A DNA stretch of 63,796 nt, counting the filler, from Thraustochytrium aureum (lineage: Eukaryota): NCBI GenBank assembly GCA_012862495.1. It is 5 parts of 4 records of this genome, joined end to end, with 100 filler letters (N's around TTAATTAATTAA, not from the genome) between each part and the next. Parts side by side here need not be neighbours in the genome. Positions count along the whole stretch, not along the records: positions 1 to 24,959 come from BLSG01000191.1; 4 more parts are not named here. One strand, written 5' to 3'. Position 1 is the first letter of the stretch. The number at the start of each line of letters is the position of its first letter. A program made the position numbers and the translations under genes. Of the stretch, positions 3,250 through 43,193 are shown one piece after another. The notes below the pieces were generated by a model. That model saw nothing but the letters and a program-made list of their open reading frames with translations, did no database searches and was not told where the DNA came from.

Positions 3250-6200
3250 TTAGACATCGTGCTTGGACGCAACGCCGCCAGTTCTGCTCTCGACGCTGTC
3301 GCTCTGCTCGCGCTGGATCATCAGCTCGCCCTCCTCTTGCTCATCGACTACAGGCGCGAAAGGGACGCCAAGCTTCGAGTGAAGGACACGGGTTGCGTCC
3401 TCCCACGTCACAGGGGGAACGAACGGCGGGAAGACGCGCAGTACCAGAAAGCTAATCCCCGCATAGTTGTCCATCGTGTAGAGCATTGCAAACGCGCACA
3501 GGAGGACCGCCAAGCCATATGCCGGGTTCTGGGCGATGCCCCCGCCAGCGCCCTTGGCGGCCGTGGCGCTGTTTCGCGGAGGGTGCACCGCAGGTGGCTT
3601 GTCGATGTTGATCGCATTGAGCAAGAGCTGCGCAGGGAGATTGTACGTGCTTNNNNNNNNNNNNNNNNNNNNNNNNNNNNNNNNNNNNNNNNNNNNNNNN
3701 NNNNNNNNNNNNNNNNNNNNNNNNNNNNNNNNNNNNNNNNNNNNNNNNNNNNNNNNNNNNNNNNNNNNNNNNNNNNNNNNNNNNNNNNNNNNNNNNNNNN
3801 NNNNNNNNNNNNNNNNNNNNNNNNNNNNNNNNNNNNNNNNNNNNNNNNNNNNNNNNNNNNNNNNNNNNNNNNNNNNNNNNNNNNNNNNNNNNNNNNNNNN
3901 NNNNNNNNNNNNNNNNNNNNNNNNNNNNNNGATTGTACGTGCTTGAATCATACCGCACCCCGTGATTGCGTGATCCTTGCGCGCAGAGGTGAGAGCAGCG
4001 AGGTCGATAACGAATGCGCACTTTTTGGCAATTTTGGACTGCAGCAATGCGGCACGCATAGCAGAAGCGGTCGCGTTGTTGACCTTGCCGTTGCCGAAGG
4101 CGTACGAGTCAGTGACTTTGCCATCCACAACGGACCCCGGAAGCACGAGCAGGCAGGAGGTTTCCCCGAGCGGAGCAGCAAGCGCATCCCAGGCAGCGGT
4201 AAACTCGGCAGGCGTCATCGTCGCCGCATCGTGAAGCCACGCGCCAAGCACAAGCACATCGGCCTCGAGGAGTTTGCTGCCCGGCTGGAGCTGCTTTTGG
4301 AGCGCAGTGACTGAAGGCACGTAGCTGTAGGAGACCGTGCCAGGCGGGAGGCCGGTCGCGCCGGGCATCGCCACGGAGATCTCCTCAACAAAGTCTGCCT
4401 GGAACTCGCCCACGATGAGGTGCCCCGCTTCGGGAGCCATGACTGTGTGCGTGGCCGTGGCGAGCTCGTAGACATTCTCGTCCCCCACGAACGCGAAATG
4501 CCGCTTGGCCACGAGATTTGCGGCAAGTTCGGTTGGTATCAGCTTGTATTTGCAGGCCTTCTCCGCTAGGTGGTTGCGCCACACCCACGTATCGGCGATG
4601 CAGGCCGGGCCGTCGTGGCGCGAGCACGCCCGGGACGAGACGTCGATCCAAGCTCCGTCGCTCAAGTTGTCGAGGCACGCTCTCTTCGAGAAGACTGCGA
4701 GGTGCGGACGAAGGGGGCCACCGTTGATGGGCGCGCCTACAGGGACCCATGCAGGAAGGAGGAGCAGGCCGACCGCCGCGGACGCCAGCCCAACGGCGCA
4801 CGCTGAATAGCTGAGCGCCCACCTAGAAGTAGAAGTAACTGTCGACGCAGGCGCTTCGTTGCACACCTGCGGCTCGTTCGAAGCGATGGCCCTTTCGAGG
4901 ACCGCGATCGCTGCCGCCCCCACGAGCACGATCGCGACGATGACAAGCGGCCAGCCAGCACCCATAATCTGAAGAAACCAGGCCAGGAGCCCAGCGGAAC
5001 CGAGAATGAGACCCTGGACGGCGAGAAAGTTCATCGCGCGAAAAGGGTCCTCGGGCACGAGCATGGCCCGCGTGAACATGGTAACGCGGTACAGTCGCCG
5101 GGCAACCGTAAAATAGATTGCGGTGACGACGACGAGGTTGATCTTGGGGTATCCAGGGACCAGCACGAGCACAGTCTTGGCGTTTGAGGTGAGCCAGACA
5201 TGGTGCTGCATGAGGTATGTCTCTAGGGTGTACTTGCCGATCGTGGCGAGAACGCCAAGGTGGACCTGGCGGAGCCAGGGCGTAATGTTGCGAAAGTAGA
5301 TGTAGGTCAGGAGCGGGATCATAAACGTGTACGGGTTGACCTGGTTGAACTGGAGCTTGGGGAGCGGGAAGATTTCTGTCGCCCACCACCAGGCGGCGAT
5401 GAGGAGCGCCGCGCCAACGGTGGACTTGACGGCGGTTTGCTGCGGCCAAGGCAAGGCTTCGACCTTTGCGATCCACAGCATCGCTTGGGGAAAGTTCAGA
5501 GCAAAGATCATGCCAAAAAACGTAGAGTAGTGGTCCAGACCGCTCCGGAAGTGCCACTCGTACTTGATCCCGTACGCCCCAACCGCGGCCCCCGGGTGCG
5601 GTTCGTTGGGCATGAAGGCGAAGACGACATCAAATATAGCGCCAAACTCCCAAACCGCGAAAATGATGACGCCGACGGTGGCGAGCTTGATGCGCATGGG
5701 CCACTTGGTGTGGTTTACATGGCGCGCGACGCGCATGGTGGCGAACACGACCAAAAAGTAGAAGGTGTGCAGCGGGCAGATGTAGTAGAGCATGTACATG
5801 TTGTTCATGACCAGGCACAAGAACAGCACGGTGAAGTTGAGCCGCCACATCATCTGCGCGAACCGCACGAAGCCATAGTCGCGCTTGATGTAGAAAAAGC
5901 TGAGGTTGCCGAACCCGGTCATCCACACGTAGCACGAAATCATGACGCGAACGGCGTTGTAGACCTCAGACGAGTGCATGTAGTGGTATAGCAGGAATAC
6001 GGTCTGCATCCAGCCCTTCCACTCCTCCGTTTGGTCGCGATTGATCAGGTCGGTGCTCTTTGGGTCGTGCTCGATCGATCCGAACGCGAACATGAGCACC
6101 ATCAGGCAGATGAACCAGAAAAAGTCGGGCACGTGATCCTTTTGCTCGTGCGGGAAAATGGGCGCGTTCTCGCTTATCCACGTGTAAGCCAGGATGGCGC

Positions 6201-6432
6201 CGAGGACGCCCAGCTCCGAGGTAAGCGCAAACAATGCGGGCCTCGTGAATGTCAGTGCTGGGATCTTCTTCCCGTGAAACGCCTCGCCTCCAGCAGCGCC
6301 GCCTTTCCACCACTGGACCGCCAGCACCAAAAAATTGACGCTAAAAAGGATCACGACTGCCAGCGTGGAGACGGGCAGCTCGCTGGCGCCCAGCGCAATG
6401 CCTTGCCCATTCGCATCCATACTCCCAGCCAT
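3250..6432 (-). CDS. CASD1/RWA-family (Cas1_AcylT) O-acetyltransferase with a C-terminal SGNH/PC-esterase-like domain
   Basis: Cas1_AcylT motifs 'INRDQTEEWKGWMQ', 'YNAVRVMISCYVWMTGFGN', 'YYICPLHTF', 'EWHFRSGLDHY', 'IGKYTLETYLMQHHVWL'. These are followed by 'WVW...C...FAFVGDE' and 'Y..PAQLLLNAI'. The N gap at 3653-3930 has duplicated flanks, and there is a probable frameshift near 3960. Confidence 0.88.
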   Translation of the reverse strand: MAGSMDANGQGIALGASELPVSTLAVVILFSVNFLVLAVQWWKGGAAGGEAFHGKKIPALTFTRPALFALTSELGVLGAILAYTWISENAPIFPHEQKDHVPDFFWFICLMVLMFAFGSIEHDPKSTDLINRDQTEEWKGWMQTVFLLYHYMHSSEVYNAVRVMISCYVWMTGFGNLSFFYIKRDYGFVRFAQMMWRLNFTVLFLCLVMNNMYMLYYICPLHTFYFLVVFATMRVARHVNHTKWPMRIKLATVGVIIFAVWEFGAIFDVVFAFMPNEPHPGAAVGAYGIKYEWHFRSGLDHYSTFFGMIFALNFPQAMLWIAKVEALPWPQQTAVKSTVGAALLIAAWWWATEIFPLPKLQFNQVNPYTFMIPLLTYIYFRNITPWLRQVHLGVLATIGKYTLETYLMQHHVWLTSNAKTVLVLVPGYPKINLVVVTAIYFTVARRLYRVTMFTRAMLVPEDPFRAMNFLAVQGLILGSAGLLAWFLQIMGAGWPLVIVAIVLVGAAAIAVLERAIASNEPQVCNEAPASTVTSTSRWALSYSACAVGLASAAVGLLLLPAWVPVGAPINGGPLRPHLAVFSKRACLDNLSDGAWIDVSSRACSRHDGPACIADTWVWRNHLAEKACKYKLIPTELAANLVAKRHFAFVGDENVYELATATHTVMAPEAGHLIVGEFQADFVEEISVAMPGATGLPPGTVSYSYVPSVTALQKQLQPGSKLLEADVLVLGAWLHDAATMTPAEFTAAWDALAAPLGETSCLLVLPGSVVDGKVTDSYAFGNGKVNNATASAMRAALLQSKIAKKCAFVIDLAALTSARKDHAITGCGMIQARTIXXXXXXXXXXXXXXXXXXXXXXXXXXXXXXXXXXXXXXXXXXXXXXXXXXXXXXXXXXXXXXXXXXXXXXXXXXXXXXXXXXXXXXXXXXXXXSTYNLPAQLLLNAINIDKPPAVHPPRNSATAAKGAGGGIAQNPAYGLAVLLCAFAMLYTMDNYAGISFLVLRVFPPFVPPVTWEDATRVLHSKLGVPFAPVVDEQEEGELMIQREQSDSVESRTGGVASKHDV

Positions 6433-8693
6433 TGTTCAGCTGGCTGCTGTCAACGGCGTAGACCACAGGAAGGAGAGATAACTGCCCGAATGCCGCGAGA
6501 CTCGCCTGCGAAGCTTGGCTGCGAAGCTTGGCTGCTTCACCGCGATGCGAGATGCAAGCAGACCGAAGCCGCCCGCCCGCCAGCCCGCCCGTCCACGGCG
6601 CTCTTGGTAGCCTGCCTTGCGTGTTCGTCCGTCGACTCTGGCAACTGCTTCGCTCTGGCTCCAAACGCGAGTGGCACGAAGGGGGGTGTGTTGGGGTACT
6701 AGTACTCTACTGAGTACTAAGGAGACAAATAGAGTCGTGCTGACCACGCGTGCGTCTACTGTACAGACATACCCGTGAGGTTCGTACCGAAGCAAGCAAG
6801 CACAAAGTTGTCATTGCTATCTGGCGGGGGCCTCTTGTTGTTTTCGCGGGCCCACTCCTCAACGCGCACCAGCAGGTCTCTGCTGTTCAATCTCCAGAAG
6901 CGAGCTGCTACTGTGACGTCGTTCTTCGTTGGACAGGAAGGCTTGCATGACCTTCAAGTTGATTGTCAGGTTTTCAAGAGCCCAAGAACGCGCCGGCGAA
7001 GGCTTCGTCGCTTGCCGGCTCTGGCGCGCTGATCGAGATGGGTGCGTCCCGTCGAGCTTGGTCTCCGTGCTCTCCATCGTTTTCGGCACAACGAGCACGC
7101 GAAACTCAACCTCGGTGTGCATCGATGCAAGCAGTTGGTCGACGTCTGGCGCACTGCTGGCGAGTTCGCCCTCCGCCTTGCTCGGGCTTCCACCATCGCC
7201 GTCCTTCGACGCTGCTTCGCCTTGCTTGGTTTTCTTGATTGTTGCTTTCCAAAACTGCGAGCCAGGGTATACACCACGAGCTTTAGGTTTGCGCCACCCT
7301 CGACAACCAGACGATCTCGGAGCGCCTCCACGGTGGAGATCCTACGCGGGTGGGCTTTGCTAGCCTGCACTGGATCCCGTGGAGCGTGTGCGGTTCTTCC
7401 TCAGTACCGCGGCCGCCGTTCTGCTCGACCCACATCATGCTAACAACAGGGTGCTGCTCATCATTCGGGACGTACGGAAAGGCTTGCTTGATGTCCTTGA
7501 GCTTGACGCTCGCTCGATCAAACGACGCGCGCCGAAGCAGCTCAGAGCTGACTTGCGAACTCAGCCACCGATTCGCGTGCCAGCCCGAAGCCAAGGTTTC
7601 GTCGCGGCCTTCTCCCAGGCCTGACCAGCGCCACCTCAGGCCCTTCTCCAATTAAGTACTTGGCCACGAGCGACTCAAGTATTTCCCCCGCGATTGAGCT
7701 CCGAGGCCCTTCGATGTGCTGAACGAGATGTTCTCAGTCTCCCCTCGCCGGTCCCATCGCGGATCTTCCTCCAGACATCCCCGATGCGCAGGCACAATCT
7801 CGTAGTCGTGAAACTTTCCGAATGCGCCCTCTTCCGGCTGGACGAGGCGGTAGCGCATTACACGATGGGTCTCTGCAGCCTGCACGATGTCATGTTGATT
7901 TCCCATGAGCACCCAGCTCGGCAGTCCGGCGATTGCAAAGCCGCTTGCGCCCACCTCCTTCGCATAAAAGCGCACCGGGTCGTACAACGTGCACTCGCGT
8001 CCTCGGCAAGGCAGATTGCATCGCTTGCGAACTCGAGCACCTCAACAAGCTCGGTCCAGCCGCCCGAACGACCATCATCATCACCATCACACCGCCGAGC
8101 GCCAACACGTCGATCGATCGGGCGGTGCCATACCTGGCACGCCAGCAGAGCAGTCCGTTCCACCGTCTGCCGGTCGCCGAACACGCTGCTCTCGCGCCTG
8201 CTCGGCGTGGCAGTTCACGACAATGGCATCTTCATCGAGCGAGGACTGCAGCAGCTGCTCGCACTGCCGCATGTAAGGTGGAGGGATGTGTAGGTAGCCT
8301 GTATCTTGTGTGAGAGCGCGAAGCGGCGGCCGCGCAGCAGCAGCAGCAGGAGGAGGAGCGGCAGCAGCAGCAGCAGCAGCNNNNNNNNNNNNNNNNNNNN
8401 NNNNNNNNNNNNNNNNNNNNNNNNNNNNNNNNNNNNNNNNNNNNNNNNNNNNNNNNNNNNNNNNNNNNNNNNNNNNNNNNNNNNNNNNNNNNNNNNNNNN
8501 NNNNNNNNNNNNNNNNNNNNNNNNNNNNNNNNNNNNNNNNNNNNNNNNNNNNNNNNNNNNNNNNNNNNNNNNNNNNNNNNNNNNNNNNNNNNNNNNNNNN
8601 NNNNNNNNNNNNNNNNNNNNNNNNNNNNNNNNNNNNNNNNNNNNNNNNNNNNNNNNNNNNNNNNNNNNNNNNNNNNNNNNNNNNNNNNNNNNN

Positions 8694-11600
8694 CTGACGC
8701 CGAACCGTTTGCGGACATCGGCGAATTCTACGCCGACCTCAAGCTCGTGTTCGCCAACTGCGTGTCATTCAGCGGGGCAAACTCGGCCATGGGCATGCTT
8801 GCGCAACGCCTTGCAGCGAACGCAGAACCCCTCTACCTCCAGTGGGTTGTCCGGGTTGCACCTGGCCAAAACCCGCTCCCATGGGCCAACATGGCGCTTC
8901 GCGAGGCCCCGTGGGATAGCGCTGACGCCGTGGCCGCGGCCAAGCGCGAAGCCAAGCGCGCAACCGCTCCTGCGCGCAACACCAAGCGCCCGCTTTTCCA
9001 GGGCAAAGTCGCCCCCAAGCCGAAGCCTGCTCGGCCCGCCAGCAAGGCGGCGGCGAAGAAGAAACCTAGTACCGCCGGGCGCTCGCTCAAGGAGGGCCAA
9101 CTCGAGGACAAGGCCGCAGTGGCGGCCGAGGAGGAAGAGGAGGAGGAGGAGGAGGAAGAAGAAGAGGTAGAAGAGGAGGAGGAGGAGGAGGAAGACGAAG
9201 ACGAGGAGGAGATTGAGGCGAGCTCGGGCGGCGACGACGGCGAGCAAGACGAGCCAGGGACAACGCATGCTCGGCCACCCGGTGGACAGTTTGGCGGAAA
9301 ACCCGCGTCTGCCGCCTATGTCGCGTCACATGAGCTCGGCGACGACGCCAGCGACAGCGACGACAGCGACCGTAGCGAGGGAGAAAGCGACGGCACCACC
9401 GGCGATGACGACGACGAAGACGACGACTACGAGTCCGACGGAAGCGGAACGGGTGCCAAGAAGGCCAGACGGCGCAAATCGGCGCCCGCAGGCGGGGCGG
9501 CAGGTCCCGGGACGCCGGTCTCTCTCTCCTCGCTCAAGCCTTATTTTACAAAGTCAGGGTCAAAGTCCGCGAGCAAGCCGCGGAAGCGGCCCGCGCGAGA
9601 CCTCCGCGGCATGGACGTCGTGTTCACATGCGACGTGGACAGCGAGCAATTCGTGGACAACGCCCACGGAGAATTTCACACGCACTTTGACAAACTAAAC
9701 GGGATCCGAGAGTGGGTGGACCGCGTGCGGCGGGGCCAAGACACAGTGTTGCGTACATGGAAGGTTGAGATCATCCGCAGGTTGAAGGGCGCCACGAAGG
9801 GCAGTTTGGACTCGTACTTTTTGACGCCAGGTTTAAGCGGTTGCGCACTCGGAAGGACGTCGCGGCCTATCTTGGCCTCTCTGCCGAGGAGGAGTGCGAC
9901 CACGTCGCCGCCTTTCAAGTGGCGAACGACGCGGTGGCGCATCGGTTCCAAGACCCGCCGGAAGGCTTTGCTGACGACGCGCTTGCAACGGTCACCGCCA
10001 CGGGCGCTCCACGGGACGGGGCCGCGCCGACGGGCCCTCGGATCTTCCCTCTCCGCCGCCTCGTCGCGCCGATCAAGTGTGGCAAAGTGACGATCCTGGA
10101 GATCGGCCGAGTCGTCGACCTCCCGCGCTTTTGCACCCGCAAGTACATCTATCCGCTTGGGTTCGTCAGCGAATGCCGATTCCTCTCGGGTCGCAGCCCG
10201 GGCCGGTCCACCACCTACCGGTGCGAAGTCACAATGGGTTTGAACCAAGCTACGCCAGCCTTTCGGATCACCGACACGGCAGAGGGCACGTCAGTGGAGG
10301 GTCACAGCCCCACTGCGGCCTGGACGCTCATGATCGTCGAGGTGCTGCTGGGCATGCATCGGTACTGGGACGCGATGCGCCTCGGCGTCGAGGTCTCGGA
10401 CCAGATCTGTGCGCTGAACGTCCAGCCCTCGAATGCGTCGCGCGCAATCGCCCGAGTGGACAACGACAAGAAAAAGCTCGAACTCATCCGCAAGGAGGTC
10501 CGCAAGGTCGTGCAGGGGCTCGTCAAGCGCGTGGAGCTTGACGCTGCGCGCGAGCTAGCCGCAACCAAGGCACGCGACGCCGAGTCGCTGGCGGCCTCGG
10601 ACGAGCCGGGGATCGCTGTCGGAAACGGCGCCACCCCCGACAGGGGTGGAGAGGCGAGCGCGACGGCGGAAGAAAACGGCGGCGGGATGGACTCGCTGGC
10701 GGTGGCGGCGGCAATGGCTGCCATGGCGTCGCCGTCAGAAGTGCCAACTGACGGCGCAAAACAAGCGGCAGATGGCGCGGCTGATGGCGCGGCTGATGGC
10801 GCGGCCACCGAGCACGTGCCCCTCGCGGCAGCCACGACAACGCCGCTAACGCGAGCGTTGCCGCGCCAAGACCCACGCAAAAAGCGCCCAGCGACGCTCA
10901 AGGACCTCATTGGCATTGGTATCATCGACCGCGACGGGACTATTTGCATTGATTACCAAGGGCGACAGTGGACGGCCACAGTCAGCGCAGACGGCAAGAT
11001 CTCTCACGAAACGCTGATCTTTGACACGCCCTCCGCGTTCAGCATTGCCATGAAACGCAAGGTCAACCCGAGCAAGATGGCCGACGACGGCTGGAAGAGC
11101 TGCTCGTACCAAGGCAAAACGCTGCACTCTATCAAGAAAAACCTCACCGACGCCCAGCTCGACCTGATCGACAAATTCCGTCGCGAAAACGGCGAGAACG
11201 AGCCACCAGTCTCGCGCAAACACCCTGGTGACGCGGCAGCGGCCCGTCGCGGCACCGCGGCCGCGGCGGCCGCGGAGCTCGACGCGCTCGACGACCCGCT
11301 CAAGGGCGGCAAAGGAATCGGGGAGCGCAACTACCTGGCTGGTGCACCAAACCTGGACGATTTGCCTCAGCCGCACCAAATCCAGTGGTGGCAGGTCGAC
11401 TTGACGCCGATGCTCAACGAGCAGCTGGCCAAGTACCTCTTTGGCCTGGACCCAGCCCGCCGTGCTAGACGCCGTTGAGGCGCTGCCCGGCATGGACCAG
11501 GTCAAGGTCTACAAGTTCCGCGTGCAGCGCGGCACGCAAGACAAGGAGAACGCGCGGCTGCGAAAGCGGAATGCGATGCTTGACCAGCGCATTAAGAAGG

Positions 11601-14600
11601 CCGAAAACAGGATCGCCAAGCACCAGGACGCTGTCGACCGCCGCGTCGAAGCTGCGGCGCGCCGCCACATGCGTATCGAGGACCGCCTCGCGCGCAACTA
11701 TCGCATCCAAACGAAGAAGGACGAGCGCGAAGCGGCCGTGGCCGCCCGGCGTGAAGACCGCGAAGCACGGATTAAGGAGAAACAGTCGGCCCTGGACGCG
11801 CTCAAGACGCTGCGCGATGAGATCAAGACTCACAAGGACAGCTTTAAGGACGAAAAGTCTCGGGAGATTGAAATGCTTCGCGGCGAGCTCGAGCTCGAGC
11901 AGAAAACGCTCCAGCTCGCCAACGAGGAGGTCGAGCGCACGCTCGCCGAGGTGGAGCGAGTGCGACTTGGCAAGGTCGAACTCGGCAAACAGGAGCTCAA
12001 CAGCATCCACCAGAGCTCCAAGCAGGCCAAAGAGCAGCTCGAGCGCCAAGCCGCGAAAGTGGACAGCGTGCAAAAGCGACTCGAAAAGGCCCTGCGGCTA
12101 GAGCATGAGCGGGAAGCCCGCGAGAAGGAGGAAGCCGAGGTCAAGCAAGAGCTTCTCGTGTTTTACGAAAAGCTGGAAAGGGCCGGCGCGGCCATAGAAA
12201 AGTACCTCAACTCTGCCGCGGAGGAGGACCTTCCGGACGACCTCGACTTTGCGAGCGCGAGCCCGCCGTTGGCGGTGCACACAATGGAGCCTCTGGGCCC
12301 AAATCCGCTTGCAGACACGCTCCTCGAGATCTGGGACTTCCTCTCAAAGTTCGGGCCCGACGTCGGGCTTTGCGAAAAGGCGCCTCTCATGGACGGTCTC
12401 TACAACCCGGACGAGGACGAGACCGACGGGTTCGGAGCTCTCGGAGAGGAGGACGAGGACGGCAACGCGGACGGCAACGAGGATGACGACGGGGACGAGG
12501 ACGAGGAAGACCTCGAGGAGGACCTCGAGGAGGACCTTGAGGAGGACCTCGACGAGGACCTCGACGGCGGCCTGGACGAGGAGATGGAGGACGCGTTCGG
12601 GAACTTGGAGGACGGCGAGGACGGCGAAGTCGACGACGGCGCCTCAAGCGCGCGACCTGGGACCCCCGCCAAGGGCGGCGGCGCAAGTGTCGGGACTGGC
12701 GCAGAAAGCTCGCCAGGAGACAGCCTTAGGAAGAAGGCGGCGCTGGCCTCGTCTGCTCTTCGAAAGAAGGCCACGGCGAACCTGATCGCGAAGAACGCCG
12801 CGCTTCAGCGCCTAGGCACTCTTACCGATGCGGCCGCGGTGAGCAGCACCGCGGCGGGCGCGCTGGCGGCGGCGTACTTCACGCCCGCCCCAAAGCGGAA
12901 GCGCAAGGCGCGCGCGAGACCCATTCTGAAAGAGGCGCCAGAGCGGACGCCAGTCATCCTCTTGCCCGAGGTGCGCCGCGCGCTCGAAGAGTGCGACATG
13001 GCGCTGCTTGGCCCCACGCACGTCAACCTGCTCGAGTTTTTGTTCCTTGGCGAGACGGCCTCCGAACTCAGCGAGGCTGCCAAGGACCGGAGCACCGCCG
13101 CGCGCCGCTATGTCCCGGTGAACGAGTCGACGTGGCAGGAGATCATGCGCTACTTTTGCATGTACCTCGTCAAGCAGATGCAGACGGGCAGGGAAAACCT
13201 CTCCATCAAGGAGACGCTGCACACGCTCGACACCTCTGTGAACAGCAACATGATTCGCGCCGTGGACGTGCTCTCGCGGGACGACGACATGGAGGACGAC
13301 GAGGGCGAAGAGCTTACAGAGAACGCGCGGCGCATGGCCCGTCGTGCGGCGCGAATGCGCCTCATCTCAGCCCGCGAATTGGGTATGCTTCCCATCGAGC
13401 AGCGCGTCCGCGCGCTTGAGGCGGCCGAGTACAGCGGTAGCCCTAGCGTCGAGGTGCTGTTCAAGTATCCGACGCCGCAGATGATCGCCTTGCCGTACGA
13501 ACCCCCAGCAGAACTTGAAAAGCTGCGCCCAGTGGTGTTGGCACCCCCCGAGCCGAAAACCGTAAAGAGCAAGCCAAAGTCCAAGCCTCGCGCTGGTGGC
13601 GGCGGCGCCACAGCGAGCGCCATGGGCGGCTTTGGGGCAGCTGGTAAGGCCTCGGGGGCGAAGCCTCGGGCGCAGAGCAAGCCGAAGGCGCCGAGCTTGA
13701 TCCCCTCGTCGATCTCGAAGGCGACCTCTGAGCACATTGCGAGCCTCCCTCCGTGGGGCCAAAAGCTGGTCGAAGTGCGCGAGATGCCCACGAACCGCGG
13801 TTCGAAAATCCGCGCTTGCGTGAACGAAACCATCGTGCTGCTACGAGAGGCGAATGCCGATGGCTCGCTGACCGACGTCCTTCAAGTTTTGGAGGAGCTC
13901 ATGAAGCCCGGCGTCTTCAAGTCGAACGCGGCGGGCCCGTGCAAGCGGGCCTGCTTGTATCTGGTAGCTGACAAGCTCGCGCATCTGCTGCCTGTGGGGG
14001 ACGACGCGACCCATCCCAGCTCCGCGCCCGAGCCCGAGCCGGTTGCGCCCGAGCCGGAGGTTGTTGCAGGGGAGGTGGCCGCCGAGGACGACGCCCCTGA
14101 GGCGGTGGCACCGTCCCGCAAACGTAAGAAGGCCGCAGACAACGCCGTGAAAGGCGTGGCTGCGCCGGTAGCGAAAGCGAGTCCCGGGGATCTTGTCCCC
14201 ATGGATGCGGAGATGACGCAGAGGTGCCGCGCCGTGGTTCGGCGCCTTGCCCAGGACGAGCAAGCCGGCATATTTTGCGAGCCGGTTGACACCAACGCAA
14301 TCGGGGACTATCTGAGCGTTGTCAAGGAGCCCATGGACTTGAGCACCATCGACCAGCGGCTCCATGCGGGTGGCCACTATGAGACCGTCGGACAGTTCAT
14401 GCGCGATTTGGATCTCATCTGGAAGAATTGCAAGGCCTACAACCAGCGCGGCTCGGTTATTTTCAAGTTGGCTACCGTAATGGCTAATGAGGCCAAGACT
14501 CTCGTCAAGGCTTGGGTTACGCAGGACGCGCGTGCAGCGAAAGCCGAGCCGTTTGTTTGGGACAGTGTTCTCCCAAGCGCGCCGTGGGGGGACGGGGCGC

Positions 14601-17254
14601 CTATCTCGGAAGTGCTGCACACGCCAGGAGCAGAGTCGGGCGCGAAGGGCGCGAAAAAACGCAAGCGCGCAAAAGCCACCGTCAGAGGCTTTTCGCTCAC
14701 CCCAGCCCTCGTTGAACGTGGGTTTACGCAGGAAGGGCCGCAAGTTGGAACGCGAACTGCGCGAAGAGTCGCGGACGGCTCGTTCGACCGCGGCACGATT
14801 GTCGCCTACTCTGCGACTGCCGCGCAGGGCGGCCTCTGGCACGTCAAGTTTGACGACGACGGCGACGCGGTCGACTTTAGCGCAGAGGACATAGAACAGG
14901 GCGCCAAGGTTTACGCCGAGTACACCATCAGCAAGAAGCGTGGCAAGAAGAAGGACAAGAAGAAGCGCCGCAAGAGCAAGGGCAAAACGCGTGGCGACGA
15001 CGATGGCGCCGACGACGACCAGCAGCCAAGTGGGACCCCTGCGGATGACCCATCTGCCTCCCTGAATGGCGGCGAGGATTTACAAACCGCCGCTGCGGCG
15101 GAGGAGCACGGCGAGGAGTCTGGCAACGGGGCCGAGGACAGCAACAGGAAGAAGAAGAAGAAATTGAAGAAGAAGAAGAAGAAGAAGCGGTCAAGCAAAG
15201 ACAAGGACTCTGACGAGCCGGACGACGCCCAGGGCGAGGCGAGCGATGAAGAGGTCGCAAGCAAGCCTGACATGGAGCGTGCGGGCAAGGACTCTGCAGG
15301 CGGCGCTGACACCCAGGAGAACGGTGAAGCGGCCGAAAGCGCCGCTAGCGCGCCCACTGGGGCTGATGCGGACGACCAAGCCGTCCAAGTACCCTCGGTC
15401 CCAGAGGGAGTGGACCTGCTGCGCTTGGACCAGTTTCCCGAGTACGCGTTCGTGGGCGGGATTATCACAAAGTACTTTGCAGAAGCAGGGTGCGTCGAAG
15501 GCGTGGTGACCGAGTTTGACGACGAGACGGGCGAGTTCACCGTGAGCTACGCGGAGCGCAACATCGAGGAGCGCATGAAGCGCGAAGAGTTGGAAGCTCT
15601 CGAGCGCAGGTCGGCCCTCCTCAAGGTCGGGAGCGACCGTGATGGGTACACGGACGAAGAAAAGGAGGTGGAGCGCCTTGAGAGCCGCGACGCGCAGCAA
15701 CAACGGTGCTACCGACGCGTTGAGGTGAAGGTAGAGGCTGGCGGCGCGGGCGGTTTGGAGGAGGACGTGGACGACGACGCGCCCCTCGGGCCGGTGATTA
15801 ACAGTGCCGAGGTCACGGGCGACCTCCTCGCGCCGCCGGTGGTCGAAAAGTACAAGGACATTGCGCTTCTGCGTCGGCTCGTGGTCGCGCTCGGTACGCA
15901 GCGGTACGAAGACATCCCGATCGAGCTTCGCGCTGCCATGCTCCGGCTCTTGTGCGAGCAAGTCGCCGAGAGCGGCACGATGCGCGAGTTGATCGAGCGG
16001 AAGATGCTCATCACGATTAAGACTCGCCAAAAATGGCGCGACCTGCCCCCGGTGGTCAAGCGCGAGGAGAGCGCCTCCGAAAAGGAGGAGGAGGAGGAAG
16101 ACCCAGTCTTGGACCGGCTCGCTGGCGAGGGAGTTGCTGAGCAAAAGGAGCTGGAGCGCAAACTCCGCCAGTTCAAGTCGAAGCGCGAGGGCGCGCTGAG
16201 CAAGAGCCTGCTTCGCGCAATCGAGCGGGTCGAGCGCGACCTCGACAAGCAAAAACGGAAGAAGGAGACGAGGGACGACGCGCGGCGCTGGAAGGCCGAG
16301 CTCGAGTTTAAGCTGCAGACTGTGAGCACGCGGCCCAGGATGCTGGGCATGGACCGGTACTTTAATCGGTACATGCTCTTTCCTGGCGACGGCAGNAAGC
16401 TGTTTGTCTACATCGGCGAGGAAGCTGTCCGGCGCGGCGCCGCCACGCCCGAAGAGAGCGGCTGGCGGGTGATCATGGGCCGCAAGCAGCTCAACACGTT
16501 CCTCGCAAGCCTCAACCCTGCTGGTGCCCGGGAGCGCGCCTTGCTGCATGCCATCCAGACCCGAGCCAGCTTGTTTGTGCGCGGCGAGAAGAGCGCCGGG
16601 CTCTGGCGCGCGCTTGAGCAGGGCAAGGGCCGGGCCGGCGACACCGTGACGGGCGAGGAGATGATGACGCTGATTGGCAAGCGGCTCTGCGAAGCGCGTG
16701 AATCGGGAGCCGCGACCGCCTCGCAGACCAAGCCCCGGCGGTTTTACGCCGAGTCGCGAGCAGGAATCCTGATTGGGGCCGCGGCTGTGGCCCGGCATGT
16801 TCGCGCCGCGGAGGAGGCTTCGCCGGAGCCGATGCTTCGAGGCTCGTACACGGAGCGCACGCTCGTGGATGTCAAGGTGTTTTTGCTCAATTTGGAGTTT
16901 TGCGTGTTCCTCACGCGACTCGACGAGCCCTTGACGAGCTGGATGTGGGACTTGCGCAGGGGCTGGATACGCCTGGTGACGAGCGCAACAGACTGGCGCG
17001 ACCTTCGGCAGGCGTGCTGTTTCCTGGAGGTCGTTTTGCAGGAGGTGTCGGTGCCCATGGAGAACTGGTACGCCAATCTGTACGGGGACGCTGGTTACGC
17101 GCTTCGCACGCGGACCTGCTCTAGTCTCGCTGCTCGCGTCTCTGCGCTTGACATGGCGGTCAACCACGAGGAGCTGTCGCGGCAGGCGCTAATGCGCTCG
17201 ACGAGCCGACGAAAGCCGACGGTGTCGCGCTCCCGCAAAAAGCGCAAGCGATGA
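8694..17254 (+). CDS. Large MBD9/BAZ-like chromatin reader: bromodomain - MBD - FYRN/FYRC (with RAMA insert) - coiled coil - DDT - bromodomain - 2x Tudor-like - WHIM1 - WSD; 5' end in gap; frameshifts at ~9833 and ~11458
   Basis: Joins ORFs 8306-10090, 9841-11478 and 11441-17254. Bromodomain end 'FYADLKLVFANCVSFSG'. MBD 'WKVEIIRRLKGATKGSLDSYFLTPG/KRLRTRKDVAAYLG'. FYRN 'ILEIGRVV...FCTRKYIYPLGF...YRCEV'. FYRC 'GHSPTAAW' plus 'LFGL...VEALPG'. DDT 'LLEIWDFLSKFG...TWQEIMR'. Bromodomain 'IFCEPVD...DYLSVVKEPMDLSTI...NCKAYN'. WHIM1 'YEDIPIELRAAMLRLLCEQV'. WSD 'LGMDRYFNRY...LNPAGARERAL'. Confidence 0.85.
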
Positions 17255-19741: not shown

Positions 19742-21172
19742 CCTGACGGACAGGGAGATGCGTCGCGTGCTTCGCCGGATGGACAGGGACCTGCGTCGCT
19801 TGCGTCGCCGGATGGACAGGGACCTGCGTCGCTTGCGTTCGCCTGATAGTCTGAAAGCTGGTTCGCTTGCTTCGCCTGATAGTCTGAAAGCTGCGCCGAT
19901 GAGTGCCGAGGGCCAGGGCCGTCGAGCTGCGGCTGCAACGTCGAAGACGCTGGAGGCACTGTGGGGGCTCCGGCCCAAGCGTTCCGCTGCGGGCGTCGCC
20001 CAGCCGGCCGAGGCCGGCTCGCTGCGCCGCAGGATGGCCAGGGCAGTCGAGCTGCGACGCTGCACGGGGCCGTGGACAATACGAGCAGGGATGTAGCGAA
20101 AAGGGGGCTTGGGCTCGAGCGGGCGTGGGAGCGCGGGCCTGCCGACGAGGACGCGGCGAGCAGGAGCCACGGCGAGTCAACGGAGGAAGTGGACGATGCA
20201 ACCAAGGGCGAACACGGCGCCAAGGCGCCAAGGACCCCTGGGCCAGCACTTCGGCCGTTGCCGAGTGTGACGACGCCGCCGCGTGCACTGAAGCCACTGC
20301 GCGACGTTGTCGGCAAAAAGCGCGCAAAGTGGGACTGTTGGACGAGCCCGCTTGCGGTGCGCAAGCTGCCGCGGCGAACAAAGGCGTCCTCGTCCCCGAC
20401 AACCCCACCGCCCGCCGGGGCGAGGCGCAAGCAAGGTCGCAGCCAGGTGCAAGTTTTCCTGGACTTTGGGCAGCGCGACTTTGAGATCAAAGAGTGCCCC
20501 ACGTGCGGAATGGCCTTTGCGCCAGGCGTTGCCGCGGACGAGGCGCAGCACTCGCGCTTCTGCGCCGCGCGGGGAGGCTCGCTCGCTCTCGGCTCCGCTC
20601 TTGGCGAGTCGGTCGCCGCAGCGCTCGCAGGGCAGCAAGTCCTGGAGCGATCAAGGGACGGGCTGACGACGGTGTTCTTCCGCGGGGCTCTTGACGGAGG
20701 CGCTGCCCCTAACGGCCTTGCTGCAAGGGTCCTTGCCATCAAGCGCAGCCTCGTCGACCCAGACATGGGGTTTGGGGCAGGGTGCCCAGGGCGCGAGCGG
20801 CGCCGCGACCTAGTCGCAGTTGCCGTTGACAACTGCCTCGCGGGCCTCGCGGTCGTGGAGCGGCTTGGAAAAGCCGACCGTGTCCGCTGGGCGTCCTATT
20901 CGGCGGCGGGCGGGGCGGCGGCGGCAGAGCTGGCAGAGCTCGGGCCGAGCGACGAGCGCCCCGTGCTCGGCATCGCGCAGATCTGGGTGGCTGCCGAATT
21001 CAGGCGCAGAGGCATCGCCTGCAAGCTGTTGGACTGTGCGCGCGCCAACGCCGTCTATGGCTACATAGTGCCTCGCTCGAGGATCTGCTTCTCGCAGCCG
21101 ACGAGCCAAGGCGCGCGCTTGGGGATCGCGTACGCAGGGCGCGACGGGTCTTTGATGGTGTACGAGCTTTGA
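19742..21172 (+). CDS. ECO1: Eco1/Ctf7/ESCO cohesin acetyltransferase (5' end in gap; N-terminal 33-bp SPDGQG repeats, probable frameshifts near 19838 and ~20020)
   Basis: PIP-box plus C2H2 finger 'QVFLDFGQRDFEIKECPTCGMAFAPGVAADEAQHSRFC'. C-terminal acetyltransferase 'LGIAQIWVAAEFRRRGIACKLLDCAR...ICFSQPTSQG'. Confidence 0.9.
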
Positions 21173-39982: not shown

Positions 39983-42900
39983 TCAAGCCGAACGGCGCTG
40001 CAAAGAGTCGCGCAGGCGTCGGAAGAGCGCTGCTGGAAGAGCTGCGACCTCCGCAGCGAGAGCCACCGCGAACACGGCCAGGGTATGCAGCAGCGTGCGC
40101 ATGCCGACGTACGGCGCGTTTGAGGGCTTGAGCTTGTACTCGCACCCCTTGCGGAGCATGAGGATGCCCGCGTGCAGGTGGATGTAGAGCACGACGCTAA
40201 ACGTCATAAGGGGCTGGAACACGAGGCAAGCAAGCTGCGACTCGACGCGCTCAAGCACCAGGCTCGCCGAAAAGGTTGGCGCACCGTCGTCAGCGACATC
40301 CTCGGGCGCTCTCGCGGTTGGCTGCGCGCCGGTAACGTGCTCCCACTCGGTCATCGTTGCCGCTTCGGCCGCGGCTTTGGGGCGGCGCGTGCTGAGCGCT
40401 TTGACGGCGAGGCGGCCACCCACCGGGCGCGTAAGCCTCCACTCGTAGTTGAAGAATACGTCGAAGAAAGGGCTCACGTGAAAGTCCTTCTTCCACTTGG
40501 AGGCGTACCAGTCCAGGCCGTCCGCCGCGAGCTCGCGCTTTGCGTCGTCGAAGAACGGCAGCACGTAGAGCCGCTTCTCAAGCCAGGGCGTGTTGCTCAC
40601 CTCGAGAAGGACGGCCTCGAGGCGCGTCCTGTCCGGCGAGAGGCAGTAGAACACGCTGACTGGGTTGAAGACGAACCCGAAGCAGCGCAGGTTGGTGAGC
40701 ACCTGCACCGGTCCGCTGGGCTCGCGGCCGCAGTCCTCCCGAATAGCCTTGCGAACGGCGTCATCGAGGGGCTCGGATGGGTCCCCAAAGTGGTCTTCTC
40801 GCCGCCAGGAAAAGGGCGCCCAGTCGGACGGTTTGGCGGAGACCAACCAGCTGTCGCTGAACNNNNNNNNNNNNNNNNNNNNNNNNNNNNNNNNNNNNNN
40901 NNNNNNNNNNNNNNNNNNNNNNNNNNNNNNNNNNNNNNNNNNNNNNNNNNNNNNNNNNNNNNNNNNNNNNNNNNNNNNNNNNNNNNNNNNNNNNNNNNNN
41001 NNNNNNNNNNNNNNNNNNNNNNNNNNNNNNNNNNNNNNNNNNNNNNNNNNNNNNNNNNNNNNNNNNNNNNNNNNNNNNNNNNNNNNNNNNNNNNNNNNNN
41101 NNNNNNNNNNNNNNNNNNNNNNNNNNNNNNNNNNNNNNNNNNNNNNNNNNNNNNACGGTTTGGCGGAGACCAACCAGCTGTCGCTGAACGCTGTGCCTGC
41201 GCGGACCTCGGCCAAGTCTATGAGCGCCATCCAGACGGGATAGCTGAATGCATGCGAAGACGGCGAGGCACCCTCCACCTTGTTGCGGCGGTGGGCCACC
41301 GTGCCGCGGTACAGGCGCGAGTCTGCGAGCAAAGTCAGCGCGGAAGTGAGCGGCAAGCGCTACGCCAAGTGCCAAAGCCAGTAGCAAAAAAAAACAGAGA
41401 GCTGAGGTGGGCAAATGATTCACGTACGCAATGGGGCCGCCAGCGGGTTCGCGCTGGCCGCAGCGGGGCTCGCTGTGCCGCCCATGGTTTCGATGAGCTC
41501 CGCCTTGGTGCGCGCCTTGCTCAGGAGCTGGTCGGTGTTGACGCGGTTTTCACGCTCCTCCTTGTACCTCACCGCGGTGCTGATCAGAAGCGCCGTCTCG
41601 CGCACCGCGATCGCGCAAATGGGCAGAAGGACGCGCCACGGCGCCTTGAGGATGACCGGATAGAGGAGAATCGGGACAGGGATCCACCGGATCACCACCA
41701 GAGCCAGCAGGTCGAGCTTCCAGAGCAGCGCGTAGCCAGTGTGCCCCAATGTGTAGCCACGGAGGCTGAGCATGGTGCGGAGGCTGCGGAAACAAGCATG
41801 GAGCTCGCTCACGCCGTGCACGATGGCGAGGCCGAGCGCTGTTGTGGCCGTCTTGGTGTCCCCCGGCGAAGGACAGCACGCTCAGAGTCAGGAGGGCGAG
41901 CGAGTGCAACCCGTTCAGGAGCGACCTGTGCAGCAGAAAGCGGGACACCGAGGCCCACGCAAGCACCGCAACGACAAAGTGCATCGGGGAGCGGATGTAG
42001 TACTTTGTTGCGAGGTCCGGCAGCGACGCCGAGGCAGCTGCGGCTTCGCTCTGAACTCGCGCAGAGCCCTCAGCAGAGCAGGCGCCCGTTTCGCTGCCCC
42101 ACTGGCAAAAGTGCACGTCGTCGCCCCCGGCGACCGAGGCCGACGCGTTGATTCCGGACTCGGCACCAATCGCACCTCCCACCGAGGCATCGGCCTGGTC
42201 CCAGGGAGTCGCATTCGCAAGTTGAGTGGTGTACAGCACGTCATGGAACGCGATGAGGCCCAACACGACCGCGCACACGAACACGGAGACGCAGAGCTTG
42301 ACGAAAACGAGCTGCGCTCGTCGGCGTGCACGCGTCGAGACCGTCGCGGTGGCGGGGTCGAGTTTCGGCAGGTATGTGGCGATGAGCGTTGCGAAGATCA
42401 CCGCGGCGCACAGGATTGTAGCGATGTGCCTGATCACGGTGTGCAGGGTGAGCGACATGACGGCGACCCACGACATGACGGCTACAATCGCCGGAAGCAC
42501 GACGGTGTCAAACGACTGCAGCCACAGCGGGACGTCCTCCTCGAGGCCGGCCCCCTCTCCAGAGGCGACAGAGGCAGCAGCGGCAGCAGCCCGCCTGGCG
42601 CCCTTGGCCTGAAGGTCGGCTGTGTCGCGCAGCTTGCTGACGAAAGTGAGGTGGTAGTCGAGGATGTACTTTTGGCGGAAGCCCGACTCGCAGTAGGCAA
42701 AGTACATCTCGAAGACGCGAAACCACGACTCGGGGTAGCCGAGGGCGAGAATCTTCTCCTTGTTGGCCAGGAAGCGCTCGCGCCACATGCGCAGCGTGAT
42801 GGCGTAGTCGGGACCGATGTCGACGACCTCCGCGAGGTCGAGCGCAGTCTCCTCTGTGGCCCATTTGACAGCGCTGAGGGAGGGCAGGTGGCCGCCAGGG

Positions 42901-43193
42901 AAGATGCATTCGCGGATAAAGTCCGAGGTGGAGCAGTATTCGTCGTACCGGTCATCGTGAATCGAGATCACCTGGATCACGGCCCGGCCCCCGGGCTTGA
43001 GCATCCGCTCGACCGTCTCAAAGTACTCTGGGAGGTGCTTGTGGCCGACGGCTTCAAGCATCTCGATGGAAACCACCTTGTCGAAGCAGCCAGGCGCGAG
43101 GTCGTGCTCAAAGACGATCTGGTCCTTGAGCTCGTTGTACTGCTCGATGCCCATCTTGCGATAGTCGCAGATGATGAGGTTGACTTTGTCCTC
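39983..43193 (-). CDS. Fusion gene: cyclopropane-fatty-acyl-phospholipid-synthase-like SAM methyltransferase - multi-TM (TLC-like) domain - DUF1365; 5' truncated by linker; intron 41323-41427; frameshift ~41860
   Basis: CMAS motifs 'DYR', 'FDKVVSIEMLEAVG', 'DFIRECIFPGGHLPSL', 'IGPDYAITLRMWRERF', 'MYFAYCESGF'. A TM region follows. DUF1365 motifs 'LYRGTVAHRR...HAFSYPV', 'LTNLRCFGFVFNPVSVFYC', 'EVSNTPWLE', 'KDFHVSPF'. A GT-AG intron joins them in frame. Confidence 0.85.
41323..41427 (-). other. Spliceosomal intron (105 bp) joining the TM region to DUF1365
   Basis: Donor GTACGT, U-rich body, branch-like GCTGAC, acceptor ...TTGCTCGCAG. Splicing gives in-frame ...A-P-L-H-S-R-L-Y-R-G. Confidence 0.8.

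What the first reader, a model, noticed from the sequence alone, without database searches (positions are those of the whole stretch)
9740..11520. MBD plus a RAMA domain nested inside FYRC in an ISWI-partner-like chromatin protein
Seen in sequence: after frame correction the order is MBD (~9740-9880), FYRN (~10040-10230), then the first half of FYRC ('FRITDT...VEGHSPTAAW'). A ~360-aa insert follows, containing 'TLKDLIGIGII...IDYQGRQWTATVSADGKI....IFDTPSAFS...KRKVNPSKMADDGWKSCSYQGKTL..IK' (~10890-11150). The second half of FYRC ('LFGL...V..AVEALPG....YKF') lies at ~11430-11520. Established knowledge: the insert matches the RAMA domain pattern (as in MPND), proposed to bind modified DNA such as N6-methyladenine. 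MBD-FYR-DDT-bromo-WHIM-WSD is the plant MBD9/BAZ2-type architecture that partners ISWI remodelers. Inference: a potential dual reader of 5mC and 6mA coupled to nucleosome spacing in a stramenopile.
Basis: partly seen in the sequence, partly recalled or inferred. Interest (0 to 1): 0.7.

Follow-up and report, generated by a model that had tools for sequence, protein, structure and literature searches.

The report
Nested-domain chromatin reader of marine protists
This is an intact gene, broken only by assembly errors, for a large chromatin protein, probably of a thraustochytrid-type marine protist, in which a DNA-binding RAMA domain sits inside another domain beside a classic methyl-CpG-binding domain; it likely helps a nucleosome-spacing enzyme grip DNA, and whether it senses methylated adenine or cytosine is untested.

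Summary
Observation confirmed. RAMA passes Pfam (67 bits, E 1.5e-18) and matches the MPND fold (Z 13.5). Both frameshifts are assembly errors. The result is one intron-less ORF of over 2,850 aa: Bromo-MBD-FYRN-FYRCa-[363-aa insert with RAMA]-FYRCb-coiled coil-DDT-like-Bromo-Tudor x2-WHIM1-WSD. Four orthologues, one from Mucochytrium quahogii, keep the nesting. An orthologue model rebuilds the whole FYR fold around the insert (140 of 146 residues). The MBD keeps both arginine fingers, which BAZ2A lacks.

The dual 5mC/6mA reader idea is only partly supported. The MPND and CcrM RAMA structures show backbone binding, and 6mA preference is disputed in print. The one relative found with a measured methylome (Aurantiochytrium) has linker 6mA but background-level 5mCG. 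DDT is sub-threshold and ISWI binding was not tested.

Best reading: a likely ISWI accessory subunit with a methylation-blind linker-DNA arm (0.55). A true 6mA-linker reader is the bold alternative (~0.17). RAMA+MBD/bromo/Tudor fusions are already in print; RAMA inside FYRC was not found in my searches.

The parts
8696..17254 (+). Single intron-less ORF once two assembly indels are allowed for; at least 2,852 aa; start codon hidden in the N gap 8381-8693
   Evidence: colinear with intact orthologues P0151 (2407 aa), P0002, P0003
8696..8850 (+). C-terminal half of bromodomain 1 (N-terminal half in the gap); Ser where P0151 and P0002 have the conserved Asn
   Evidence: Pfam Bromodomain positions 51-83, E 5.5e-4; alignment; loose end of run X3 continues into the gap
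9740..9885 (+). MBD of canonical type, with both arginine fingers (codons at 9779 and 9844) and the Asp/Tyr pair (9809, 9815)
9830..9831 (+). Assembly error: one base missing in the window
   Evidence: extra base in contigs of runs X1, X2, X3
10045..10230 (+). FYRN
   Evidence: Pfam E 5.4e-15; fold match 2wzo
10255..10344 (+). FYRC first half (strands plus helix)
   Evidence: Pfam FYRC positions 2-29; model aligns to 2wzo up to residue 282
10345..10548 (+). Conserved helical part of the insert, predicted as long helices (stalk)
   Evidence: 36% mean identity among 5 family members; helices in both models
10882..11145 (+). RAMA domain; keeps the equivalents of MPND R63, S113 (as Thr), S115 and W135
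   Evidence: Pfam 67.1 bits; phmmer to 7ydt E 5.6e-10; VIA-align Z 13.5, rmsd 1.5 over 88 aa
11314..11433 (+). Conserved return linker leading back into FYRC
   Evidence: 45% mean identity; alignment
11434..11527 (+). FYRC second half
   Evidence: Pfam FYRC positions 60-83, E 0.0028; completes the FYR fold in the orthologue model
11451..11451 (+). Assembly error: one extra base in the window
   Evidence: left out in contigs of runs X1 and X2
11530..12230 (+). Long helical, likely coiled-coil region; first 50 aa strongly conserved
   Evidence: 50% mean identity over the first part; no specific Pfam family
12300..13060 (+). DDT-like region in two pieces (about 12300-12370 and 12950-13060) around a 194-aa acidic insert; identity inconclusive
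   Evidence: first piece Pfam DDT E 0.075, 0.021 in P0002; second piece no hit
14225..14476 (+). Bromodomain 2 with the conserved Tyr-Asn (Asn role as acetyl-lysine anchor recalled)
   Evidence: Pfam E 8.5e-22; Asn kept in P0151, P0002, P0003
14750..14895 (+). Tudor/chromo-like barrel 1
   Evidence: weak beta-barrel hits, E 0.002-0.01; PTM_DIR17_Tudor E 0.01 at the matching place in P0002
15464..15595 (+). Tudor-like barrel 2 (PTM/DIR17 type), below cut-off
   Evidence: 23.0 bits, E 6.9e-5, cut-off 27.2
15887..15997 (+). WHIM1
   Evidence: 19.0 bits against cut-off 19.1, E 0.0011
16331..16561 (+). WSD motif
   Evidence: 47 bits, E 3e-12; also passes in P0001/P0151, P0002, P0003
16840..17210 (+). 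Conserved C-terminal helical block, no Pfam name
   Evidence: alignment; no hit at E 10

Best explanation
This is an intact, conserved multidomain chromatin protein, probably of labyrinthulomycete-type stramenopiles, that likely serves as an accessory subunit of an ISWI nucleosome-spacing remodeler, with its RAMA domain, nested inside a FYR domain that is predicted to refold around it, likely gripping linker-DNA backbone regardless of methylation. Shown: domain order, intact frame, conservation, and retention of the DNA-contact residues. Predicted: refolding of FYR around a helical stalk that carries RAMA. Inferred from family knowledge: WHIM1/WSD and the DDT-like region dock on ISWI's SLIDE domain; bromodomain 2 binds acetylated histones; the arginine-finger MBD reads pyrimidine-G steps (mCG where it exists, otherwise TG). 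RAMA would add a second, sequence-independent DNA contact, playing the part that WAC or HARE-HTH play in other ISWI partners.
For: Indels are assembly errors. Four orthologues keep the full order. WSD passes in 3 of 3 orthologues that reach it and WHIM1 is at cut-off; the Atlas features search returns WSD/WHIM1/DDT clusters (recognition score low). DDT-WHIM modules bind ISWI SLIDE and linker DNA (review PMC8536118). FYR refolds in the P0002 model: 140 of 146 residues, rmsd 2.5, Z 14.0, against 100 residues in the model lacking FYRC-b. The RAMA residues kept are those that contact the backbone in MPND. MPND binding was sequence-independent and unaffected by 6mA, and CcrM's RAMA is nonspecific and SAND-like (SAND hit Z 6.5).
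Against: DDT never passes the Pfam cut-off and is split by 78-194 aa. Kweon 2019 found 6mA-selective binding by the MPND RAMA. Labyrinthulomycetes encode AMT1 (3 of 3 looked up and found) and Aurantiochytrium has periodic 6mA in linkers, where an ISWI partner works, so methyl sensing would fit well. Both models have low global confidence (pTM 0.32 and 0.44) and do not place the domains relative to each other. Only five family members are known, one of them named.
Confidence: 0.55

Rival explanations
1. RAMA reads 6mA. The protein is an ISWI partner whose RAMA prefers AMT1-made symmetric 6mApT and so positions or phases nucleosomes just downstream of start sites. The MBD is a general TG/CG anchor.
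For: AMT1 in Aurantiochytrium, Aplanochytrium and Schizochytrium. A. limacinum 6mA is symmetric (r 0.49), enriched at TSS+500 (0.010 against 0.0007 at gene ends) and forms three linker peaks. MPND RAMA was 6mA-selective in one pull-down. RAMA is kept at 40% mean identity in all 5 members.
Against: No base contact in the MPND structure and phosphate contacts in CcrM; 6mA did not change MPND binding. MPND orthologues persist in animals, which lost AMT1. No Aurantiochytrium orthologue was identified among named hits. The methylome of the window's organism is unknown.
Confidence: 0.17
2. Dual reader: the MBD binds 5mCG and RAMA binds 6mA, so one remodeler subunit compares the two marks.
For: Both MBD arginine fingers and the Asp are kept in the window and 3 of 4 orthologues. 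DNMT6 is reported in Aplanochytrium.
Against: It needs both steps to hold. 5mCG in A. limacinum is at background, below DNMT-less Dictyostelium (0.0019 against 0.0033). The window shows no CpG depletion (o/e 1.12), a weak sign by the same paper's account. Canonical MBDs also bind unmethylated TG. P0003 has Lys and His at two of the four key positions.
Confidence: 0.08
3. A multivalent chromatin scaffold that does not mainly serve ISWI spacing, for example an MBD9-like bridge to SWR1/H2A.Z deposition at acetylated promoters, with FYR as a protein-docking surface.
For: Plant MBD9, which has the MBD-FYR-DDT-bromo-WSD set, bridges SWR1 and ISWI (review PMC10451976). DDT here is degenerate or split. 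An intact bromodomain 2 fits targeting to active promoters.
Against: WHIM1 plus WSD are conserved ISWI-docking motifs. MBD9 itself binds ISWI. No PHD fingers were found.
Confidence: 0.18
4. The pieces are separate or dead genes.
For: Two frame breaks in the window. A split transcript form exists in the Mucochytrium cluster (P0152 plus P0001).
Against: Contigs of 3 and 2 runs restore the frame. Intact P0151, P0002 and P0003 exist; P0002 is one ORF in locus L001.
Confidence: 0.02

Closest known systems
Plant MBD9 (At3g01460)
   Same: MBD, FYRN/FYRC, DDT, bromodomain and WSD in one chain; known to bind ISWI (CHR11/17) (review passages)
   Different: No PHD found here; two bromodomains and two Tudor-like barrels; MBD keeps its binding residues whereas MBD9's does not bind DNA; RAMA inserted into FYRC (the review lists none for MBD9)
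BAZ2A/TIP5 (NoRC) and other DDT-WHIM-WSD ISWI partners (ACF1, WSTF, plant HB1 type)
   Same: MBD-like domain, WHIM1, WSD and bromodomain; HB1-type partners carry HARE-HTH, the other predicted modified-DNA reader
   Different: BAZ2A has Lys567/Lys588 in place of the arginine fingers and is methylation-blind; no FYR or RAMA listed for them; no PHD-bromo pair here; DDT weak and split
MPND RAMA domain (PDB 7ydt/7ydw) and CcrM C-terminal domain (6pbd)
   Same: Same fold (Z 13.5 and 10.7); equivalents of R63, S113, S115 and W135 kept
   Different: No JAB/MPN peptidase or methyltransferase here; RAMA sits inside another domain. A quick tree places a Myb-RAMA-JAB protein (P0010) among the family RAMAs, with weak support (82-83)
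FYR domain of TBRG1 (PDB 2wzo) and the split FYR of MLL1/2
   Same: Full FYR fold rebuilt from separated parts; MLL FYRN and FYRC also reassemble after separation
   Different: MLL is split between FYRN and FYRC; here the break is inside FYRC, in a loop that is short and variable in the 2 intact FYR proteins where the pattern matched, and it holds a folded DNA-binding domain
Eukaryotic RAMA fusions listed by Iyer et al. 2016 (PMC4738411)
   Same: RAMA in stramenopiles; fusions with TAM/MBD, bromo and Tudor already named
   Different: FYR and DDT do not occur in the main text, and FYRN/FYRC not in the supplement as held; Fig. 4 itself could not be seen and long supplement cells were cut

Membership tests
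RAMA domain (PF18755) | Profile score above the curated cut-off | tested here: met
   67.1 bits against 35.2; 44-76 bits in 4 of 4 orthologues
RAMA domain (PF18755) | MPND/CcrM fold and DNA-backbone contact residues | tested here: met
   Z 13.5, rmsd 1.5 over 88 aa to 7ydw; R63, S113 (Thr), S115 and W135 aligned
6mA reader | Preferential binding to 6mA-containing DNA | not testable with these tools
   Needs a binding assay; print is split
Canonical MBD (MBD2/MeCP2 type) | MBD profile and fold | tested here: met
   Pfam cut-off passed in 3 of 4 orthologues; best PDB sequence hits are MBD2/3/4; fold matches at Z 4-5 over about 50 aa; the window's own copy tested only in halves
Canonical MBD (MBD2/MeCP2 type) | Two arginine fingers (MBD2 R166/R188) plus Asp/Tyr (D176/Y178, numbers recalled) | tested here: met
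   R,D,Y,R in the window, P0151 and P0002; R,D,C,R in P0154; K,D,H,R in P0003; register
Canonical MBD (MBD2/MeCP2 type) | Binds 5mCG in its own genome | not testable with these tools
   Only related methylome seen (A. limacinum) has background 5mCG
FYR domain (FYRN+FYRC) | Both halves present and forming one fold | tested here: met
   FYRN passes; FYRC halves at profile 2-29 and 60-83; predicted model of orthologue P0002 covers 140 of 146 residues of 2wzo
DDT-WHIM-WSD ISWI accessory subunits | WSD motif | tested here: met
   47 bits against 25.4
DDT-WHIM-WSD ISWI accessory subunits | WHIM1 motif | tested here: inconclusive
   19.0 bits against 19.1 on the isolated piece, in the expected place
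DDT-WHIM-WSD ISWI accessory subunits | DDT domain | tested here: inconclusive
   Only profile positions about 4-23 hit, E 0.02-0.14 (window piece, P0002 piece, P0004/P0154); presumed second half no hit
DDT-WHIM-WSD ISWI accessory subunits | Physical binding to ISWI | not tested
   No ISWI sequence of this lineage was held; no complex job run
MBD9 (plant) | PHD fingers | tested here: not met
   No PHD hit in the window frames or in full-length P0151, P0002, P0003
BAZ2/TIP5 | TAM-type lysines and PHD-bromo pair | tested here: not met
   Arginines instead of K567/K588; no PHD
MPND/MYSM1 deubiquitinases | JAB/MPN domain | tested here: not met
   No JAB hit in the window or orthologues

The most novel reading that the evidence does not exclude
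The nested RAMA is the missing reader of AMT1-made 6mApT. Carried on a helical stalk out of the FYR core of an ISWI subunit, it would couple linker 6mA directly to nucleosome spacing at the 5' ends of active genes, while the arginine-finger MBD senses CG/TG steps (5mCG in species that have it).
Probability: 0.17. Interest if true: 0.85.

Novelty: new variant of a known kind. Interest (0 to 1): 0.46.

Why it matters
A 2025 survey of eukaryotic 6mA says that identifying readers is key and that 6mA's role in nucleosome positioning is unclear (PMC12695648). This family puts the domain most often proposed as a 6mA sensor on a likely nucleosome-spacing subunit, in a group whose members encode AMT1 and, in one measured species, carry linker 6mA. 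That makes it a clean test case: one 90-aa domain, one binding assay. A negative result would also help settle whether eukaryotic RAMA domains read 6mA at all. Structurally, it shows that FYRC tolerates a conserved 260-360-aa insert holding a folded domain. Without the binding result it is a lineage-restricted domain arrangement of a known protein class.

Tried and rejected
No whole genome is held, so the organism's AMT1, DNMTs and ISWI could not be searched.

Short introns as the cause of the frame breaks: considered and rejected, since single-base indels in other contigs explain both.

Expression: no RNA holder on record was listed; X2 and X3 are only guessed to be RNA, so no claim is made for the window. 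The Mucochytrium orthologue comes from a transcriptome collection. The second read-laying, meant to cover the gap and start codon, gave no answer, so the N-terminus stays open.

Word-indexed protein searches were weak. One search found none among 7,989 candidates. One search found 2 of 6,656 and missed known members P0003 and P0154. One search covered only lengths 4,214-5,000 and was uninformative. The family's range, and its presence in Aurantiochytrium, Hondaea or oomycetes, is therefore not settled.

Metagenome scan: 1 of 80 loci held the full arrangement (L001 = P0002); the other 79 showed RAMA only or nothing. The ESM Atlas gave no usable hit for the FYR-RAMA part.

The RAMA tree is the quick version only (96 columns, 133 rows, six near-duplicate or partial proteins left out). 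The family groups at support 82 together with P0010 and P0105, which is too weak to name a donor. A joined DDT profile found no non-family DDT, including in P0123. No complex prediction was run.

Literature searches that bear on novelty: searches showed no paper on this arrangement. One search used 'labyrinthul' as a whole word, so that term could not match. One search found no labyrinthulomycete mention. PMC3272235 is not held.
Full report
Observation. The region holds three overlapping + strand frames: to 9832, 9769-11478 and 11405-17254. Pfam finds RAMA (67.1 bits, E 1.5e-18) and FYRN (E 5.4e-15) in the middle frame, bromodomain (E 8.5e-22) and WSD (E 3e-12) in the last, and the end of another bromodomain in the first. 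Scanned as pieces, 10240-10350 hits FYRC profile positions 2-29 and 11453-11551 hits positions 60-83. The stretch between them is 363 aa.

The frameshifts are not real. Of 4 runs laid, contigs of X1, X2 and X3 carry one more base after 9830, and X1 and X2 lack the base at 11451. The other runs have no depth at those places. X1 may be the source sample; X2 differs by many substitutions and is an independent strain-level witness. No intron-like joint was listed other than one repeat artefact. The gene is one ORF of at least 2,852 aa whose start lies in the N gap 8381-8693.

The arrangement is a conserved family. HMMER over 1.84 billion representatives gave 449 hits at E 0.001; 150 were listed and 3 were under 1e-30. 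These three and a fourth (P0004, full form P0154) are orthologues. P0001/P0151 is from Mucochytrium quahogii, a thraustochytrid; the others are unnamed. All keep bromo-like region-MBD-FYRN-FYRCa-helices-RAMA-linker-FYRCb-coiled region-DDT-like-bromo (first bromodomain degenerate in P0003 and P0154), and the three full-length ones continue with Tudor-like barrels, WHIM1 and WSD. The insert is 257-277 aa in the orthologues. Profiles built from these five rows were run on the 155 proteins and 80 loci then held. Only 6 protein ids (the same four genes) and 1 locus (L001 = P0002) combined RAMA with another module. The family's own hits are by construction; the point is that the others lacked the pairing. 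The assignment of the window to labyrinthulomycetes is an inference from the one named orthologue (47% identity).

The split FYRC is predicted to refold. A model of the window's middle frame, which lacks FYRC-b, matches the FYR crystal structure 2wzo over 100 residues (chain 181-282, Z 10.8). A model of orthologue P0002 from MBD to past FYRC-b, built from five family rows with no intact FYR in the alignment, matches 140 of 146 residues (model 109-511, chain 181-324, rmsd 2.5, Z 14.0). The FYRC helix runs on into long helices, RAMA follows, and a low-confidence linker returns. Global confidence is low (pTM 0.44), so domain positions are not established, and AlphaFold may favour folds it knows. 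MLL proteins give precedent for FYR assembling from distant parts, but they split between FYRN and FYRC (PMC8401916 passages). Other domains of this family also carry inserts (bromodomain 1, DDT-like region), so the nesting may reflect a tolerant loop more than a functional coupling.

RAMA. It matches mouse MPND by sequence (E 5.6e-10) and fold (Z 13.5, rmsd 1.5), then CcrM (Z 10.7) and a SAND domain (Z 6.5). The MPND residues R63, S113, S115 and W135 map to Arg, Thr, Ser and Trp. In the MPND-DNA crystal S113, S115 and W135 contact the backbone, no base contact was seen, binding was sequence-independent and 6mA did not raise it (PMC9963953, parts 1-2 of 5 read). CcrM's domain is called nonspecific and SAND-like (PMC6787082 passages). 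Against this, Kweon et al. reported selective pull-down of MPND RAMA by 6mA in one context but not GATC (PMC6591016 passages). So conservation shows a working DNA-binding surface, not methyl reading.

MBD. The Mucochytrium MBD's best solved relatives are MBD2, MBD3 and MBD4, aligned without gaps, and the P0002 model superposes on MBD2 and MeCP2. In that register the window has Arg, Asp, Tyr, Arg at MBD2 R166, D176, Y178, R188 (R166/R188 from PMC8600091; the other two numbers recalled). P0151 and P0002 are the same, P0154 has Cys for Tyr, and P0003 has Lys and His. BAZ2A has lysines at the fingers and is methylation-blind, and canonical MBDs bind mCG or unmethylated TG (PMC8600091 passages). 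Plant MBD9's MBD lacks key residues (PMC10451976 passages).

The methylation context. AMT1 is listed for Aurantiochytrium, Aplanochytrium and Schizochytrium (PMC12695648 supplement rows). A. limacinum has low but symmetric 6mApT (0.18%, r 0.49), enriched after start sites in three linker peaks. Its 5mCG fraction is 0.0019 with strand correlation -0.006, below DNMT-less Dictyostelium. DNMT6 is reported in Aplanochytrium, and that paper notes that DNMT6 does not by itself predict methylation in trypanosomes (PMC9998398 passages). The window shows no CpG depletion (o/e 1.12), a weak indicator. These data favour 6mA over 5mC as the mark available, but they come from a species in which I did not identify the gene.

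ISWI partnership is inferred. WSD passes clearly, WHIM1 is at cut-off (19.0 against 19.1) and DDT shows only its first third at E 0.02-0.14. DDT plus WHIM motifs form the ISWI SLIDE-binding, linker-contacting module (review PMC8536118 passages). No PHD or JAB domain was found, so the protein works like MBD9/BAZ-type subunits but is not filed as MBD9, BAZ2 or MPND.

Mechanism. Most likely (0.55) it is an ISWI accessory subunit that binds acetylated chromatin through bromodomain 2 and linker DNA through MBD and a stalk-mounted, methylation-blind RAMA. Rivals: RAMA reads 6mApT (0.17); non-ISWI or SWR1-bridging scaffold (0.18); dual 5mC/6mA reader (0.08); dead gene (0.02).

Novelty. Iyer et al. 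already list RAMA in stramenopiles and fused to TAM/MBD, bromo and Tudor (PMC4738411 passages). FYRN and FYRC were absent from its supplement as held, but cells were cut and figures are not visible, so that may bear on the claim. Five searches showed no paper on RAMA inside FYR or on an ISWI partner with RAMA. The scan's own notes hold no match to this sequence and two unchecked notes of RAMA+MBD-like pairs on other enzymes. Verdict: a real, new variant of a known class; interest 0.46, resting on its value as a direct test of the 6mA-reader question.

Noticed in passing
window 54226-56700 (-): One ORF running out of an assembly gap carries a zinc-deaminase domain with intact H-x-E and P-C...C motifs (Pfam Inv-AAD E 4e-28) ahead of THADA/Trm732 DUF2428 and its C-terminal TPR. 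It looks like a deaminase fused into or in front of a tRNA-methylation cofactor; likeness to Rib2-type deaminases is recalled, not tested.
   Followed up: partly
proteins P0078, P0108: CHD-type SNF2 remodelers that carry a RAMA domain (P0108 also chromo and HMG), a second link between RAMA and nucleosome remodeling.
   Followed up: no
proteins P0006 (Hondaea fermentalgiana), P0028: Two RAMA domains plus a weak PHD; P0006 is annotated as MPN-containing but has no JAB hit.
   Followed up: no
protein P0140 (Cymbomonas tetramitiformis): RAMA fused to a TET-associated glycosyltransferase (TAGT) domain.
   Followed up: no
protein P0010, probably locus L002:1968-2243: Myb-RAMA-JAB protein whose RAMA falls among the family RAMAs in the quick tree; a possible source of the insert, unproven.
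   Followed up: partly
window 12370-12950 and orthologue bromodomain 1: Other domains of the family also carry internal inserts: 78-194 aa in the DDT-like region and a conserved stretch inside bromodomain 1.
   Followed up: partly
window 19883-21172 (+), 3250-6435 (-), 39986-43193 (-): Neighbours include an ESCO/Eco1 acetyltransferase, a Cas1p-type O-acetyltransferase, and DUF1365 next to a cyclopropane-fatty-acid synthase; no link to the finding seen.
   Followed up: no
protein P0123 (Acrasis kona): FYRN-FYRC followed by a weak DDT, without RAMA; hints that FYR-DDT proteins are older than this insert.
   Followed up: no
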